DNA of 64,000 nt from Candidatus Latescibacterota bacterium. Lineage in GTDB: Bacteria; Latescibacterota; UBA2968. The DNA lies in assembly GCA_965205975.1 (NCBI GenBank), contig OZ242195.1, positions 1,664,001-1,728,000 of the forward strand, given 5' to 3'. Position numbers and translations under genes: made by a program. Below the pieces are notes generated by a model that saw only the letters and a program-made list of their open reading frames with translations, searched no databases and was not told where the DNA came from. Below are positions 51,956-63,083 of this stretch, piece by piece (within the stretch, counting starts at the first letter, position 1; each line of letters starts with the position of its first letter).

Positions 51956-54900
51956 TCAAGCATTAATTGGAGGTAAACCAATGCTTTCAGTGCTCTCTTC
52001 TGCGAGGGCTTCAAAGACCTGCGATTCTTCCACCACATCTGTATCCAAATCGCGATATTTCAAAGCACCTGTACCGGCGGGAATGAGGTGCCCGATGATC
52101 ACATTTTCCTTTAATCCCAACAGCGCGTCAACTTTACCCTGTACTGCTGCTTCGGTAAGCACGCGGGTAGTTTCCTGGAAAGACGCTGCCGAAATGAAAC
52201 TCTCGGTCAAAAGAGAGGCTCGGGTAATCCCCAACAAGACGGGATTGTTAGTTGCGGGATCGCCCCCTTCAGCGAGGACCTTTTCATTTTCCTCGAGGAA
52301 GCGGAACCGGTCAACGAGTTCGTCTTCGAGAAAATTGGTATCTCCAGGATCTGTCACCTGCACTTTCTGCAACATCTGTCGGACTATGGTTTCAATATGC
52401 TTGTCATTGATTTTCACACCCTGGAGCCGATAAACCTGCTGAATTTCGTCAAGGAGATATTCTTGAACTTTCCGGTCTCCCAGAATAGCCAGAATATCGT
52501 GTGGATTTACCGACCCCTCAGAGAGACGGTCACCAGCGGTCACATGATCACCTTCTTGCACGCGCAGATGTCGTCCGTAGGGAATGGTGTATTTTTTTTC
52601 TTCGCCCTCATCCGCCGTGACCAGGACAACACGCGAGCCTCTCACCATACCACCAAAACGCACCGAGCCGTTGATTTCTGTTACCACAGAAGCCTCTTTG
52701 GGGCGACGCGCCTCAAAAAGCTCAGCAACACGCGGCAAACCACCTGTAATATCTCGTGTTTTGCTGCGTTCTCGCGAAATTTTAGCCAGTGTATCGCCAG
52801 CTTCTACTCGATCGCCATCGCGCACCACCAGACGCGCTCCGAGAGGAATGATATAATGGCCCAGTTCTTCGCCATCTTCATCAACAACCAGAATGTGCGG
52901 AGATAAGGTGCGATCCCGGTGCTCAATCACGACCAGTCCAGCAATGCTGGTGGTTTCATCAATCTCTTCGCGATATGTCATCCCTTCTACGAGATCCACA
53001 AACTGAACCCTACCAGCTTTGGGCGATACAATCACATTATTATAGGGGTCCCATTCGTAGAGTGCCTGGTCCTCTTCCACATTTTGCCCCTCCCGCACGC
53101 GCAACACGGCTCCATGCGGGACATGGTAGTGCCCCCCTCTTACACGCCCCTGATCATCCTGTACTTCGATCTCACCATTCCGCCCGACCACAACCCACGA
53201 ATTTTCATCGCGCTGGACAGACTCGAGATGCTTAAAGATGACTTTTCCCGCACGCTTTGCACCAATCTCAGCCTGCTCGGCAATGCGGTTGGTAGTACCA
53301 CCAATATGAAAAGTGCGCAATGTCAGTTGCGTTCCCGGTTCACCCACACTCTGGGCAGCGATAACACCCACAGCCTCTCCGATATCAACAGGTAGTCCGG
53401 TGGCGGGATTGCGACCATAACAGGCCATACAGACCCCTCGCCGAGTTTCACACGTCAGTACGGACCGCACCCAGACGCCTTCAATACCTGCATCGGCAAT
53501 TTTGTCAGCCAATTCTTCATCCAATAAAACGCCTGCGTCAACAATGCGGTCACCTGTAATGGGGTCTTCCACATCCTCTAGCACTGTGCGTCCTACAATG
53601 CGGTCAGACAGCGATTCAACAACTTCTTCTCCTTCTTTCAAAGCTTCCATTTCAATGCCTAATATCGTTCCGCAATCGGCTTCAGAAATAACCACATCTT
53701 GCGACACATCCACCATGCGACGCGTCAAGTATCCCGCTTCAGCGGTCTTCAAGGCCGTATCGGCCAGACCCTTGCGACTACCGTGCGTCGAAATAAAATA
53801 CTCAAGCACGCTCAGACCTTCTTTAAGCGACGAAATAATAGGTGTTTCAATAATTTCGCCAATCGCTCCCGTCAATTTCTTTTGCGGTTTATTCATCAGC
53901 CCGCGCATACCACCGAGTTGCTTGATCTGATCGTCGTTGCCTCGCGCGCCTGAATCCTTCATAATCCAGATCGAATTGAAGCCATTTTCAGCTTTTTCAA
54001 ATGCACCAATCATGGCCTGGGCAATGTGATTAGTCGTATGCTGCCACACATCAATCACTTTGTTGTAGCGTTCGCCCTCAGTAATAGCCCCGATCGCGTG
54101 TTGTTCAATAATTTTTTCTACTTCGTCCATAGCACCGGTAATCAACTCTTCCTTTTCAGGAGGCACGACCACATCGCTCACCGCAATCGAAATACCCGAA
54201 CGCGTCGCATAATCGTATCCCAATTTCTTTAAGCCATCGAGAAAATTTGTCGTAATGCGGTTGCCATACCGACTGTGGACTTCAGAAGAAACTTTGCGGA
54301 TACCTTTGTCATCGATCAACTCATTGATAAAGGGCATCGTTTCAGGGATAATTTCATTAAAAATGACGCGCCCAACTGTAGTTATCAAAAGTTTGCCATC
54401 AATGCGAACGCGCACGGCTTCGTGCAAGCCAATGCGTTCAAAATCATACGCCATGCGAGCTTCACCGGTACTGCTAAAGGTTTTGAGGTCCTCTTCCTTA
54501 CCGTGAACAATTTTTGTCAGATAATACAGGCCCAATGCTATTTCCTGGGGTTTATCGACCACAACAGGAGACCCGTCGGCGGGTTTGAGCAAATTGTTTG
54601 AAGACAGCATCAATACTCGCGCTTCAATCTGGGCCTCAAAAGAAAGTGGCAGATGCACGGCCATTTGATCACCGTCAAAATCGGCATTAAAGGCCGCACA
54701 GACCAGAGGATGAATGCGAATGGCTTTGCCTTCCACGAGCACGGGTAAAAACGCCTGAATCCCCAGGCGATGCAATGTCGGGGCGCGATTGAGTAAAACG
54801 CAGTGATCCTGGATAATTTCTTCGAGAATATCCCATACTTCGACGCGTTCGCGTTCGACCAATTTCTTTGCACTTTTAACGGTTTGCACAAGCCCCTTTT

Positions 54901-56047
54901 CTTCGAGCCGCCGAATAATAAATGGCTTGAATAATTCCAGAGCCATATGTTTGGGCAGACCGCATTGATAAAGTCTCAAATGAGGATCAACCACAATCAC
55001 AGAACGGCCCGAATAATCGACGCGTTTACCCAAAAGATTCTGTCGGAACCGGCCTTGTTTACCCTTGAGCAGATCGGAAAGCGACTTGAGGGAACGGTTG
55101 CCATCACCGCGAACAGCACGGGACCGACGACCATTGTCAAACAGAGCATCTACAGCCTCTTGAAGCATGCGTTTTTCATTGCGTAAAATGACTTCGGGCG
55201 CTTTGATTTCAATCAGTTTTTTTAGCCGATTATTTCTATTGATCACGCGGCGGTATAAATCATTGAGGTCCGAGGTTGCAAATCGCCCTCCCTCTAAGGG
55301 TACAAGAGGACGCAAGTCGGGCGGAATGACGGGAATCACATCGAGAATCATCCAATCGGGCTGATTGTCCGATTGACGGAACGCCTCAACGACCTTGAGG
55401 CGTTTGAGCGCCTCCTGTTTGCGTTGCACCGAAGTCTCGAAACGAGCTTGCGTTCGCAGTTCTGCAGACAAATCCTCAATATCGATATCAGACAGCAGTT
55501 TCTTGATCGCACCAGCCCCCATATCCACATCAAACGAATACCCCTCGTCTTCGAGATCAATCACTTCGTCTTCTGTTAACAAATCTTTGGATTTGAGATC
55601 GGGCGCGTCGCCAGGATCAAGCACCACATACGATTCGTAGTAAATGATCCGCTCGAGATTGCGAACGGAAAGATTGAGCAAATACCCCATGCGAGATGGC
55701 AGAGACTTAAAAAACCAGATATGTGTCACCGGAACCGCCAATTCGATATGCCCCAGCCGTTCTCGTCTGACTTTCGATTGGGTCACTTCTACCCCACACC
55801 GATCACACACCACCCCCCGATATCGAATGCGCTTGTATTTACCACAATGGCACTCCCAGTCTTTAACAGGTCCAAAAATGCATTCGCAAAATAAACCATC
55901 GCGCTCGGGCTTAAAAGACCGATAATTGATGGTTTCCGGTTTGGTGACCTCGCCGCGAGACCACCCGCGGATGGTATCTGGCGAAGCCAGTTGAATGCGA
56001 ATTGAATTAAAATCTAAGGGTTGATTAGCAAAATTGGCATCGGCCAC
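51956..56047 (-). CDS. rpoC: RNA polymerase beta' subunit
   Basis: NADFDGD, Zn-finger [18 protein letters not shown]. Confidence 0.99.
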
Positions 56048-56077: not shown

Positions 56078-59000
56078 TCAGTCTATCTGCGCGCTTTCGA
56101 GTACCACGTCTAAACACAGGCTTTGCAATTCTTTAACCAGAACATTAAATGATTCCGGCACACCGGGTTCGGGTGGATTTTCTCCTTTTACAATGGTCTC
56201 GTAAATTTTGGATCTGCCCGCCACATCGTCGGACTTGACAGTGAGCATTTCCTGTAACATGTGTGCAGCACCATAAGCTTCGAGCGCCCAAACTTCCATT
56301 TCCCCAAAGCGCTGTCCACCAAATTGGGCTTTGCCGCCCAAAGGTTGCTGGGTGACCAGTGAATAGGGTCCAATCGAACGCGCGTGAATCTTATCACTGA
56401 CCAAATGCGATAGTTTCAACATATAAATGATACCGACCATCACTTCTTTATCAAATGGTTCCCCTGTTTTGCCATCGTAAAGGAGTGTTTTTCCGTTTTC
56501 GGGCAAACCAGCTTCTCGCAACATATCCTGGACATCGTCCATGCTCGCGCCATCAAACACAGGGGTCGCAAAGTGGAGGTCCAGTTTGTGGGCTGCCCAA
56601 CCTAAATGGGTTTCGAGGATTTGGCCAAGATTCATGCGAGAAGGTACACCGAGCGGATTCAAAACCAGGTCAATAGGTGTACCATCGGGCAAATAGGGCA
56701 TATCTTCTTCGGGCACAATAATCGAAATCACACCCTTATTGCCGTGCCTACCGGCCATTTTATCCCCTACCATCAGCTTTCTTTTTCGAGCGACATATAC
56801 CTTGACCAGTTGCACAATGCCCGGCGGGAGTTCATCTCCGCGTGCAATTTTTTCAAGCTCTCGCTCGAGTTCTTCTTCAGCCTGTTGCATCACGTAAGCC
56901 GCCAGTTCAATCAGTCGATCCACTTTTTGGGTTATCGCTGGACTATCACACCAATCCCCGTCGGGTGTTACAACGCCCAGGTCAAATTTTTCCAGCAACC
57001 TTTCATTCAGCGCCGTGCCAGCCTTTACAACCACCTTGCCGTCTTCATCGCGCAGGGTATTGACTTTGCGGTTTTTGAGAAGAGCCAAAACCTGCTGATC
57101 GCGGCTTTGTTTCAATGACTCAATCTTGTCAGAAATGCGTTTTCTGGCAGCTTCGGTCTTTCCTTTGTCTTCATTTCGCGTCTTTTCATCGCGCTCTTTA
57201 CGAGAAAAAACTTTGCGATCCATGACTACGCCATCCATTCCAGGGGGAGCTTTGAGCGATGCATCGCGCACATCGCCAGCCTTTTCGCCAAAAATCGCAC
57301 GCAACAAACGCTCTTCGGGCGACAATTCGGTTTCGCCCTTTGGGGTCACCTTCCCAACGAGAATATCACCCTGATTGACCTCTGCCCCCACGCGAATGAT
57401 GCCGTGTTCATCGAGATTGCGAACAGCCTGCTCACTCACGTTGGGAATTTCACGCGTAATTTCTTCTGTGCCGCGTTTGGTATCGCGGACCTGGAGTTCA
57501 AATTCTTCAATGCTAATTGACGTGAAAATATCCTTTTTAATGAGCCGTTCAGAAACAATAATGGCATCTTCAAAGTTGTACCCATGCCACGACATAAACG
57601 CCACGAGCACATTGGCACCCAGTGCGAGATCTCCTCTATCTGTGGCACAACCATCGGCTAATAACTGTCCCTTTTCAACTTTATCTCCAACCTGTACGGC
57701 TGGGCGCTGGTTGATACAAAAATCTTGATTGGATCGCTTGAATTTGGTCAGATCGTAAATGTCTTCATCAGACAGCGAAATGGTTTCAAGACTGCGACTT
57801 TTCCTGCGTTTAATGACAATTTTGTCAGCACTGACATACGTCACAACACCGGCGTTTTTCGCAATGATCACAGCCTTTGAATCAACGGCAACTTTGCGCT
57901 CGAGGCCCGTTCCAACACGCGGGGCGTCCGTGATTAAGAGAGGCACACCTTGCCGCTGCATATTGGACCCCATCAACGCGCGGTTGGCCTCATCGTGTTC
58001 GAGAAAAGGAATGAGTCCGGCGGCGGCACTCACAAGCTGGAAGGGTGAAACGTCCATATAGTCAATCACTTCGGGATCAACCACGGGAAAATCGCCTCGC
58101 CGCCTCGCCTGCACGACAGTATTTTGAAACTCGCCCTTATCATCAAGAGCCAGATTGGCCTGTGCAATAGTATGGCGATCTTCTTCGTCGGCAGGCAAAT
58201 ATGCAATATCCTGTGAAACTTTGCCATTTTTGACCTTCCGATAGGGCGTCTCGAGAAAGCCAAAGGGATTGACCTTGGCATACGTTGCCACAGACACAAT
58301 CAGGCCAATATTTGGGCCTTCTGGCGTTTCGATAGGACAAATGCGACCATAGTGCGTGTGATGCACATCACGCACCTCAAACCCCGCCCGATCGCGCGTT
58401 AATCCCCCAGGTCCTAATGCCGATAAACGGCGTTTGTGGGTCAATTCGTCAAGCGGATTGATTTGCTGTAAAAACTGCGACAATTGGCTGCTGCCAAAAA
58501 AGGCCTGAACCACAGTAGATACAGTCCGTGCGTTGACCAGATCGTGGGGAGTCAGTTGCTCGGAATCGCGCAAACTCATGCGTTCTCTAATCGTGCGCGC
58601 CATGCGTGCCAAACCAATACTAAATTGCTTGGAGAGCAACTCGCCTACAGAGCGCACCCGCCGATTGCCCAAATGATCGATATCATCGGTAAACCCATCC
58701 CCCATAGCCAGGATGAGTAGATAGTCAATGACTTTAATAAAGTCATCAATACACAGCATGGTGAAGTCGAGCGGAATATTATCGACCATATCCAGACGCT
58801 GGTTAATGCGATAGCGCCCGACAGTACCCAGATTATAACGCCGAGGACTGAAAAAATGTCGCTCGAGCAATCCGCGCGCAGTTTCAATATTGGGTGGATC
58901 GCCAGGGCGCAGCAGGCTATAAATCCGCGCGAGTGCTTCTTCTTCGTTATCACACGGATCTTTGTCCAGCGTATTGTTAATAATCCCGCCATCGTTTTCG

Positions 59001-59851
59001 GGATCGATATCCATCACAGTGATTTTGACGATCGCATTTTCCTTAAGGGCTAAGAGATGTTCCTCCGTCAACGTGGTATATGCTTCGACAATCACTTCTC
59101 CCGTCTTTTTATTAACCACATCTTCGGTAACAATGCAATCGACGAGTTCTTCAGTAACTCTGACTGTGGTATCACCGTGAAAAATACCCAGAATTTCCTC
59201 GGACTTGTCAAACCCCAAAGCTCTCAACAAAGTCGTAACAGGCAATTTGCGTTTGCGGTCGATATGGACGTACATAATATCGTTGATATCGAGACTAAAT
59301 TCGAGCCAGGCTCCGTTGTCGGGAATGATTCTGGCTGAAAATAAACGCTTGCCATTAGGATGAATGGAGTCGTCAAAAAATACGCCAGGAGAACGGTGTA
59401 ATTGGCTGACGATCACACGCTCTGAACCATTGATGACAAATGTACCTTCATTGGTCATCAACGGCAATTCGCCTAAAAACACTGTCTGCTCGACGATATC
59501 TTTAATGCGAAATTCGCTATTTCCCTGCTTTTCTCGGGAAACCAGACGAAGTGTCGAACGCAGAGGTACGGCATGAGTCGTACCGCGTTCGAGACATTCT
59601 TGTACATCGTATTTAGGAGTTCCAACGGAATAATCTACAAACTCTAAAGAATAGAGATTGTGGGCGTCTGTGATCGGGAAGATACCCTGGAAGACCGCCT
59701 GTAGCCCTTGCTTTTCGCGTACTACAGGCGGTGTATCCTTCTGTAAAAACCAGTCATAAGAATCGAGCTGGATATCCAGCAGATTCGGCATTTCGATTGC
59801 AGACGTGAGAGTTCCATACGATTTCCGGTCAATAAATCCTCTATCTGCCAA
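56078..59851 (-). CDS. rpoB: RNA polymerase beta subunit
   Basis: [21 protein letters not shown]. Confidence 0.99.
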
Positions 59852-62817: not shown

Positions 62818-62893
62818 TGGCAGGCCAGGCAGGACTTGAACCCGCAACCGTCGGTTTTGGAGACCGATGCTCTACCAGTTGAGCTACTGACCT
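62818..62893 (-). tRNA. tRNA-Trp (CCA)
   Basis: 76-nt cloverleaf; anticodon CCA; encoded 3' CCA. Confidence 0.95.
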
Positions 62894-62905
62894 ACCCAAA
62901 AACAA

Positions 62906-62981
<76 letters not shown>

Positions 62982-63006
62982 GTTGGGCAATCCCCACTTG
63001 AGATTC

Positions 63007-63083
63007 TGGAGCGGGAAACGGGACTCGAACCCGCGACCCTCAGCTTGGAAGGCTGACGCTCTGGCCAACTGAGCTATTCCCGC
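63007..63083 (-). tRNA. tRNA-Gly (TCC)
   Basis: GCGGGAA acceptor stem; anticodon TCC; encoded CCA. Confidence 0.95.

What the first reader, a model, noticed from the sequence alone, without database searches (positions are those of the whole stretch)
58410..58500. RpoB rifamycin pocket carries D516Q and S522D, resembling a rifamycin producer's self-resistant enzyme
Seen: cluster I reads [22 protein letters not shown] versus the usual SQFMDQxNPLSExTHKRRxSAL. D516 is Gln (codon CAG, 58466-58468, two changes from any Asp codon) and S522 is Asp (GAC, 58448-58450), so a single miscall is unlikely. H526 and S531 are intact. Established: D516 and S522 are rifampicin-resistance positions. From memory, and to be verified, the producer Amycolatopsis mediterranei has Q, D and N at the 516, 522 and 531 equivalents. 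Inference: intrinsic, possibly convergent rifamycin resistance in the main housekeeping rpoB of a lineage not known as a producer.
Basis: partly seen in the sequence, partly recalled or inferred. Interest (0 to 1): 0.8.

Follow-up and report, generated by a model that had tools for sequence, protein, structure and literature searches.

The report
Ancient paired rifamycin-pocket variant in RpoB
This uncultured bacterium's RNA polymerase carries two linked changes in the pocket where rifamycin antibiotics bind; the pair is an old inherited trait of its whole class and recurs in unrelated bacteria, so it probably gives natural drug insensitivity but is not a recent or producer-like adaptation.

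Summary
In detail: the only full-length rpoB has Gln516 (CAG) and Asp522 (GAC), with His526 and Ser531 intact. Contigs from four public runs keep both residues. The genome is Ca. Latescibacterota. The pair is old: 60 of 60 genomes examined in the class carry it, and 7 of 20 outside the class carry Asp522. A single origin in the phylum is not rejected. The genome has no rifamycin-size PKS. Named Amycolatopsis RpoBs read Q/D/N531 and other actinomycetes Q/D/S531, as here; A. mediterranei itself was not fetched. Asp522 almost never coexists with Asp516: 79 of 80 metagenomic loci, 67 of 68 actinobacterial proteins, and 103 of 103 in a diverged mini-polymerase family. The phylogeny-aware test reaches only p=0.06. 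Best reading: a compensated pair giving reduced rifamycin sensitivity (about 0.75; untested). Whether drugs selected it here is open. The scan noted this pair before on other DNA.

The parts
56078..59851 (-). rpoB, housekeeping RNA polymerase beta subunit, 1257 aa; the only full-length rpoB in the genome
   Evidence: (tblastn on G000)
58409..58495 (-). rifamycin-pocket cluster I (E. coli 507-535)
58466..58468 (-). Gln516 (CAG) in place of the near-universal Asp
58448..58450 (-). Asp522 (GAC) in place of Ser/Ala
58436..58438 (-). His526, intact
58421..58423 (-). Ser531, intact (Asn in the Amycolatopsis Q/D/N type)
51956..56047 (-). rpoC, downstream in an ordinary rplK-rplA-rplJ-rplL-rpoB-rpoC-rpsL operon; no biosynthetic cluster alongside
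   Evidence: gene names assigned from my own knowledge of the translations

Best explanation
Gln516/Asp522 is a compensated two-residue state of the rifamycin pocket, fixed long ago in this branch of Latescibacterota and inherited vertically; it most likely makes the enzyme less sensitive to rifamycins. Shown: the residues, their fixation across the class, and near-mutual exclusion of Asp at 516 and Asp at 522 across unrelated lineages. Known from others: Asp at 522, and most changes at 516, each give rifampicin resistance in susceptible bacteria. Inferred: an ancestral Ala522 became Asp by one base change. Two carboxylates beside His526 are poorly tolerated, so Asp516 was then lost (Ala, Gly or Asn are one step away; Gln and Ser need more). 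That leaves one acidic residue to support the helix, but not where it contacts the drug. Also inferred, and weaker: the first step was favoured by environmental RNA-polymerase inhibitors, as seems likely in actinomycetes.
For: Class-wide fixation: 60 of 60 genomes in the class are Q/D; outside it 4 Q/D, 3 A/D and 13 Asp516 of 20. A metagenome scan that fixed Asp522 and left 516 free gave non-Asp516 in 79 of 80 loci (Q 58, G 9, A 7, S 5, D 1), spread over many deep branches, mostly 43-64% identical to my references. Among 120 actinobacterial proteins, 67 of 68 with Asp522 lack Asp516, and 52 of 52 without Asp522 keep it. In Actinomadura, one species is listed with two copies, one Asp516/Ala522/Ser531 and one Q/D/Ser531. 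Among 15 listed cluster members, Q/D (4) and Asn531 (7) never co-occur, and 4 are wild type. PMC12337354 says that in such two-copy genomes one copy usually carries the resistance changes. S. aureus A477D, the same position, was found in 17 isolates with MIC >128 mg/L, and the paper says it puts a carboxylate next to an existing one (PMC10604019). It slightly slows growth (PMC5784246). Position 522 does not touch the drug directly but acts through His526 (PMC8502021; modelling), whereas 516 and 526 bind a drug hydroxyl (PMC6963833). GCC/GCT reach an Asp codon in one step; Ser TCN codons do not.
Against: No MIC or enzyme assay exists for this allele pair; the single-substitution values for 516Q and 522D lie in supplementary or source data that I could not see. 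The phylogeny-aware test found 6 independent pairs on well-supported branches: 5 same way, 0 opposite, 1 no difference, p=0.0625, which is not significant. Exceptions exist: two Asp/Asp sequences (L224, P0176), one Asn516/Ser522 genome (G338), and a published isolate with acids at both positions. The same coupling holds in a mini-polymerase family whose other pocket residues vary freely, so it does not need drug selection. Amycolatopsis adds Asn531 on top of Q/D, which may mean Q/D alone is not enough for a producer. PMC12337354 warns that known resistance residues can be silent in other backgrounds. The order of events is inferred, not tested.
Confidence: 0.5

Rival explanations
1. Neutral structural charge swap. 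One acidic residue at either 516 or 522 does the same structural job. The Q/D state was fixed without drug selection in this lineage, and any resistance is a side effect.
For: The mini beta-beta' polymerase family shows the same exclusion: 103 Asp522 rows all lack Asp516, 12 Asp516 rows all lack Asp522, 3 have neither, of 118 ungapped rows, while its 531 column is T/R/S/I/Y. The pair is fixed for a whole class. PMC12337354 allows neutral or non-drug origins.
Against: In Actinomadura Q/D alternates with the known resistance residue Asn531 among close paralogues, and in Amycolatopsis it accompanies Asn531. The mini-polymerase tree gives only 2 independent pairs (p=0.5) and its alignment is gappy there.
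Confidence: 0.22
2. Selected for a transcription property (speed, pausing or stringent-like behaviour), not for drug resistance.
For: Pocket substitutions change polymerase speed in E. coli, and such variants are common in nature (PMC10550828). The resistant paralogue of Nonomuraea behaves as a 'stringent' enzyme (PMC5431353).
Against: There are no data for this pair; neither paper mentions it in the passages seen.
Confidence: 0.12
3. The two changes cancel: Asp522 restores the pocket's charge and His526 geometry, so the enzyme still binds rifamycins almost normally.
For: The other main contacts (Q513, H526, R529, S531, I572) are intact. Exactly one Asp is kept in nearly all sequences. Amycolatopsis carries an extra Asn531.
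Against: Each single change is reported as resistant. Q/D occupies the divergent-copy slot in Actinomadura.
Confidence: 0.11
4. Recent, local adaptation of this genome or genus to rifamycins in a sponge-type habitat, or producer self-resistance.
For: Close relatives occur in runs labelled sponge metagenome (9 of 22 rows, 6 studies; two of these laid). Sponge-associated rifamycin producers are recalled, not checked.
Against: The pair is fixed in 60 of 60 genomes across four families and also present outside the class. There are only 5 ketosynthase matches, in small one- and two-KS PKS genes. Ser531 is intact, and rpoB sits in an ordinary ribosomal operon.
Confidence: 0.04

Closest known systems
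RpoB of rifamycin-producing Amycolatopsis (A. rifamycinica / A. mediterranei group)
   Same: Asp522 (PMC12337354); Gln516 plus Asp522 in named Amycolatopsis proteins such as A. ultiminotia and strain NEAU-NG30.
   Different: They add Asn531, and rpoB lies next to the rif cluster (PMC4551226; PMC7283461). Here Ser531 is intact and there is no such cluster. The A. mediterranei sequence itself was not fetched.
Q516/D522/S531 RpoB of Kutzneria, Kibdelosporangium, Actinokineospora, Nakamurella, Amycolatopsis QT-25 and Actinomadura second copies
   Same: Identical state at 516, 522, 526 and 531.
   Different: Another phylum with separate origins; in Actinomadura it can sit beside a wild-type copy, whereas here it is the sole rpoB. 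No phenotype was found for them in the papers searched.
Clade-wide intrinsic rifampicin-resistance alleles (531N in Spirochaetia, 526N in Mollicutes, Erysipelotrichales and Bifidobacteriales)
   Same: An ancient, clade-fixed pocket variant in the housekeeping gene (PMC12337354).
   Different: Those are described as single-position variants. That paper's main text does not mention Latescibacterota or 516Q; its datasets were not seen.
Acquired A477D of Staphylococcus aureus
   Same: Asp at the position equal to 522 (numbering); MIC >128 mg/L.
   Different: A recent clinical change on an Asp516 background with a small growth cost, not a fixed pair.
Duplicated rpoB(R)/rpoB2 of Nonomuraea and Nocardia
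   Same: A naturally resistant pocket in a non-producer (PMC5431353).
   Different: It uses His526Asn and a second full-length copy; neither is present here.

Membership tests
Rifamycin-producer self-resistant RpoB (Amycolatopsis type) | Gln516 and Asp522 | tested here: met
Rifamycin-producer self-resistant RpoB (Amycolatopsis type) | Asn531 | tested here: not met
   Ser531, TCG
Rifamycin-producer self-resistant RpoB (Amycolatopsis type) | Rifamycin PKS cluster in the genome, beside rpoB | tested here: not met
   5 ketosynthase matches in a 98%-complete genome; the three large ones lie in one- and two-KS genes; the ten-module size of the rif PKS is recalled. The PF01041 search (17 matches) cannot single out an AHBA synthase.
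Intrinsic RpoB-based rifampicin resistance (Bolourchi et al. 2025 definition) | At least one curated resistance residue in the housekeeping rpoB | tested here: met
   522D is named as a resistance mutation in PMC12337354; present here
Intrinsic RpoB-based rifampicin resistance (Bolourchi et al. 2025 definition) | Fixed across a clade | tested here: met
   60 of 60 genomes examined in the class
Intrinsic RpoB-based rifampicin resistance (Bolourchi et al. 2025 definition) | Measured resistance of cells or enzyme | not testable with these tools
   no assay data found
Duplicated rpoB system (rpoB2 / rpoB(R)) | Two full-length rpoB paralogues, one sensitive | tested here: not met
   one full-length hit; the second hit is a 1062-aa fused mini-polymerase
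Enzymatic rifamycin resistome | Arr ADP-ribosyltransferase | tested here: not met
   PF12120 not found in G000; the control rang in 1 of 14 genomes
Enzymatic rifamycin resistome | Rph, Rox, Rgt or HelR | not tested
   no search run

The most novel reading that the evidence does not exclude
The rifamycin pocket of bacterial RNA polymerase has a second stable state in which the conserved Asp moves from 516 to 522. This state has arisen many times across phyla, and even in a stripped-down single-chain polymerase. It is drug-insensitive and can be kept for very long times, so whole uncultured classes such as this one are naturally rifamycin-resistant through an epistatic pair that single-mutation screens cannot see.
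Probability: 0.4. Interest if true: 0.6.

Novelty: new member of a known kind. Interest (0 to 1): 0.4.

Why it matters
If resistance is confirmed, a large uncultured class that includes sponge-associated members is intrinsically insensitive to rifamycins. Rifampicin could then serve as a selective agent for cultivating them, and the result extends surveys built on cultured reference genomes. The 516/522 coupling is a clean natural case of epistasis in a drug pocket and is directly testable in vitro. It is not evidence of a hidden rifamycin producer or of recent antibiotic pressure.

Tried and rejected
Sequencing error: rejected.

Producer status: rejected; the PF01041 search was uninformative.

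Several origins within the phylum: parsimony gives 3 changes, but the AU test does not reject one clade (p=0.207), so convergence inside Latescibacterota is not claimed.

Reciprocal test (non-Asp516 without Asp522): two scans of viral contigs gave 7 chance matches that are not rpoB, and 0 matches. One scan of 285 genomes of a neighbouring phylum gave 1 match, Asn516/Ser522; that pattern does not cover Ala, Gly, Val or Glu.

Paper searches for the producer's three residues and for the pair gave no paper stating Gln516 for A. mediterranei; the single hits were seen only as listings and look unrelated. Three papers were not held. Supplementary files could not be read, so the single-mutant values of PMC10550828 and the datasets of PMC12337354 remain unseen and may bear on both phenotype and novelty.

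The single-sequence fold of the mini-polymerase failed (pLDDT 34.5). No side-chain distances could be measured, because coordinates are not returned. An Rfam scan found only three tRNAs. Rows X21 and X22 hold next to none of the words and were not used.

Full report
Observation. The window holds an ordinary ribosomal-protein and rpoBC operon. rpoB (56078-59851, minus strand) has Gln at E. coli position 516 (CAG, 58466-58468) and Asp at 522 (GAC, 58448-58450), with His526, Ser531, Val146, Ile572 and Arg687 intact. The numbering is fixed by the colinear match to E. coli beta. It is the only full-length rpoB in the single-contig, 98%-complete genome. Contigs of 4 runs, chosen from 22 listed, span the region and keep both residues, with only a synonymous change in codon 522.

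Organism and distribution. The closest named records (98-99% identical) are titled Ca. Latescibacterota. I read the pocket in 80 genomes of the phylum: the 30 loci, 10 new loci, 20 further genomes of the class chosen to cover its genera, and 20 of the 33 matched genomes outside the class. All 60 in the class are Q516/D522. Outside it, 4 are Q/D, 3 are A/D and 13 keep Asp516 (9 with Ala522, 4 with Ser522). Of the 80 loci, which partly overlap these genomes, 13 are Q/D and the other 67 have Asp516 with Ser or Ala522. Trees built without the pocket columns need 3 changes of the Asp522 state, but the deep nodes are open and one origin is not rejected (AU p=0.207, 23 of 60 rows). So the trait is ancient and inherited, with one to three origins in the phylum. 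Close relatives occur in runs labelled sponge metagenome (9 rows, 6 studies) and marine metagenome (4 rows, 1 study). I did not establish habitats for the other Asp522 lineages.

Not a producer. The genome has 5 ketosynthase matches, three of them in one- and two-KS PKS genes, far short of the ten modules I recall for rifamycin. Arr was not found; Rph, Rox, Rgt and HelR were not searched.

Comparison with producers. PMC12337354 (parts 1-4 of 6 of the main text read; supplements not seen) states that A. rifamycinica carries 522D and 531N and that about a third of the genus carries one or both. I could not fetch A. mediterranei, but named Amycolatopsis proteins read Q516/D522/N531. Amycolatopsis QT-25, Kutzneria, Kibdelosporangium, Actinokineospora and Nakamurella read Q516/D522/S531, the same state as the window. 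The window matches two of the three positions and is not a member of the producer type.

The two positions are coupled. Of the 80 listed, 79 have a non-Asp at 516, spread over many deep branches, though 22 belong to one clade. Among 120 actinobacterial proteins from a Q/D-seeded search, 67 of 68 with Asp522 lack Asp516 and all 52 others keep it. In the unrelated mini-polymerase family, of 121 rows (3 gapped, left out), 103 are non-Asp/Asp, 12 are Asp/non-Asp and 3 have neither. Corrected for kinship the signal is consistent but thin: 5 of 6 independent pairs go the same way and none the opposite way, p=0.0625; the mini family gives only 2 pairs. Exceptions are two Asp/Asp sequences and one Asn516/Ser522 genome among 285 scanned. 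Searches found no paper describing the pair. That is weak evidence of novelty, given the missing subscription journals and supplements.

How it most likely works. Position 516 and His526 bind a drug hydroxyl (PMC6963833, passages), while 522 acts indirectly through His526 (PMC8502021, passages, modelling). In E. coli nearly every change at 516 gave high-level resistance, and 522 lies on a helix critical for binding (PMC10550828; abstract, part 2 of 9 and passages). Its main text gives no value for 516Q or 522D. Asp at the 522-equivalent of S. aureus goes with MIC >128 mg/L and is said to sit beside an existing carboxylate (PMC10604019, passages). That paper names a histidine as the neighbour; I infer that the Asp at the 516-equivalent is meant, and the cited source was not held. 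The same change slightly slows growth (PMC5784246, passages). Ala GCC/GCT reaches Asp in one step. My inference is that Asp522 arose first from Ala, Asp516 was then lost because two acids there are poorly tolerated, and the result keeps the fold but lacks the drug contact. In Actinomadura, Q/D and Asn531 alternate among close paralogues, and one species has a wild-type and a Q/D copy. This fits drug selection in actinomycetes, given that two-copy genomes usually hold one resistant copy (PMC5431353, passages). The mini-polymerase pattern shows that the coupling can be purely structural, so selection by rifamycins in Latescibacterota is not shown. I put reduced sensitivity at about 0.75, and the full account (compensated pair with a drug-selected origin) at 0.5. 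PMC4551226, PMC7283461, PMC2919709 and PMC7349150 were seen as passages only; Floss and Yu 2005 was not seen.

Earlier scan notes. Two notes on other genomes reached the same class-wide reading. I had stated that reading before opening them and tested it here. Notes on the mini-polymerase were read after my own work on it.

Verdict. The feature is real and probably functional, but it is a new member of a known kind: a clade-wide natural variant of the rifamycin pocket. Interest 0.4.

Noticed in passing
L031:11523-14711 (-), outside the window (G000:C1 about 2016522-2019710): A 1062-aa single-chain beta-beta' RNA-polymerase-like protein with an intact Asp triad, directly behind an ECF-type sigma gene (L031:14723-15343). 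Found in 54 of 151 genomes of the phylum, and not in the 33 searched from families f7-f14. The sigma was found within 1.5 kb in 6 of 12 loci. Model pLDDT 90.5, matching both beta and beta' chains. It also reads Gln/Asp at the 516/522 equivalents. Earlier scan notes describe this family; I found it before reading them. It is probably more novel than the finding itself.
   Followed up: partly
P0246 and P0247: Two rpoB copies listed for one Actinomadura species, one wild type and one Q516/D522; other members of that cluster carry Asn531 instead. That both lie in one genome is inferred from shared names, accession prefixes and contig length.
   Followed up: partly
L056, L059 (family f13): These Latescibacterota keep Asp516 but have Asn526, another known resistance residue.
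   Followed up: no
P0164-P0188, P0143-P0149: Actinobacterial sets with Gly516/Asp522 (24 proteins, one clade) and Gln516/Asp522 (7); members labelled Acidimicrobiales occur in both.
   Followed up: no
L224, P0176, L305: Exceptions to the coupling: two Asp/Asp sequences (possible intermediates) and one Asn516/Ser522 pocket with further changes near 525-534.
   Followed up: no
L283-L285 (G000:C1 about 4.20-4.22 Mb and 2.08-2.09 Mb): A two-KS PKS with a methyltransferase domain, and a single-module PKS beside radical-SAM and sulfotransferase genes. They resemble the sup and swf types of sponge symbionts (names recalled, not tested).
   Followed up: partly
window, rpoB clusters I and II: Leu515 in families f1 and f2, Ile518 and Val573 in the genus, and Leu524. 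524L is described as a common 'fast' variant in PMC10550828.
   Followed up: no
P0249: A protein labelled Mycobacterium tuberculosis falls among Actinomadura RpoBs; probably a mislabelled record.
   Followed up: no
window 62821-63083 (-): Three tRNA genes upstream of the nusG-like gene, an ordinary arrangement.
   Followed up: no
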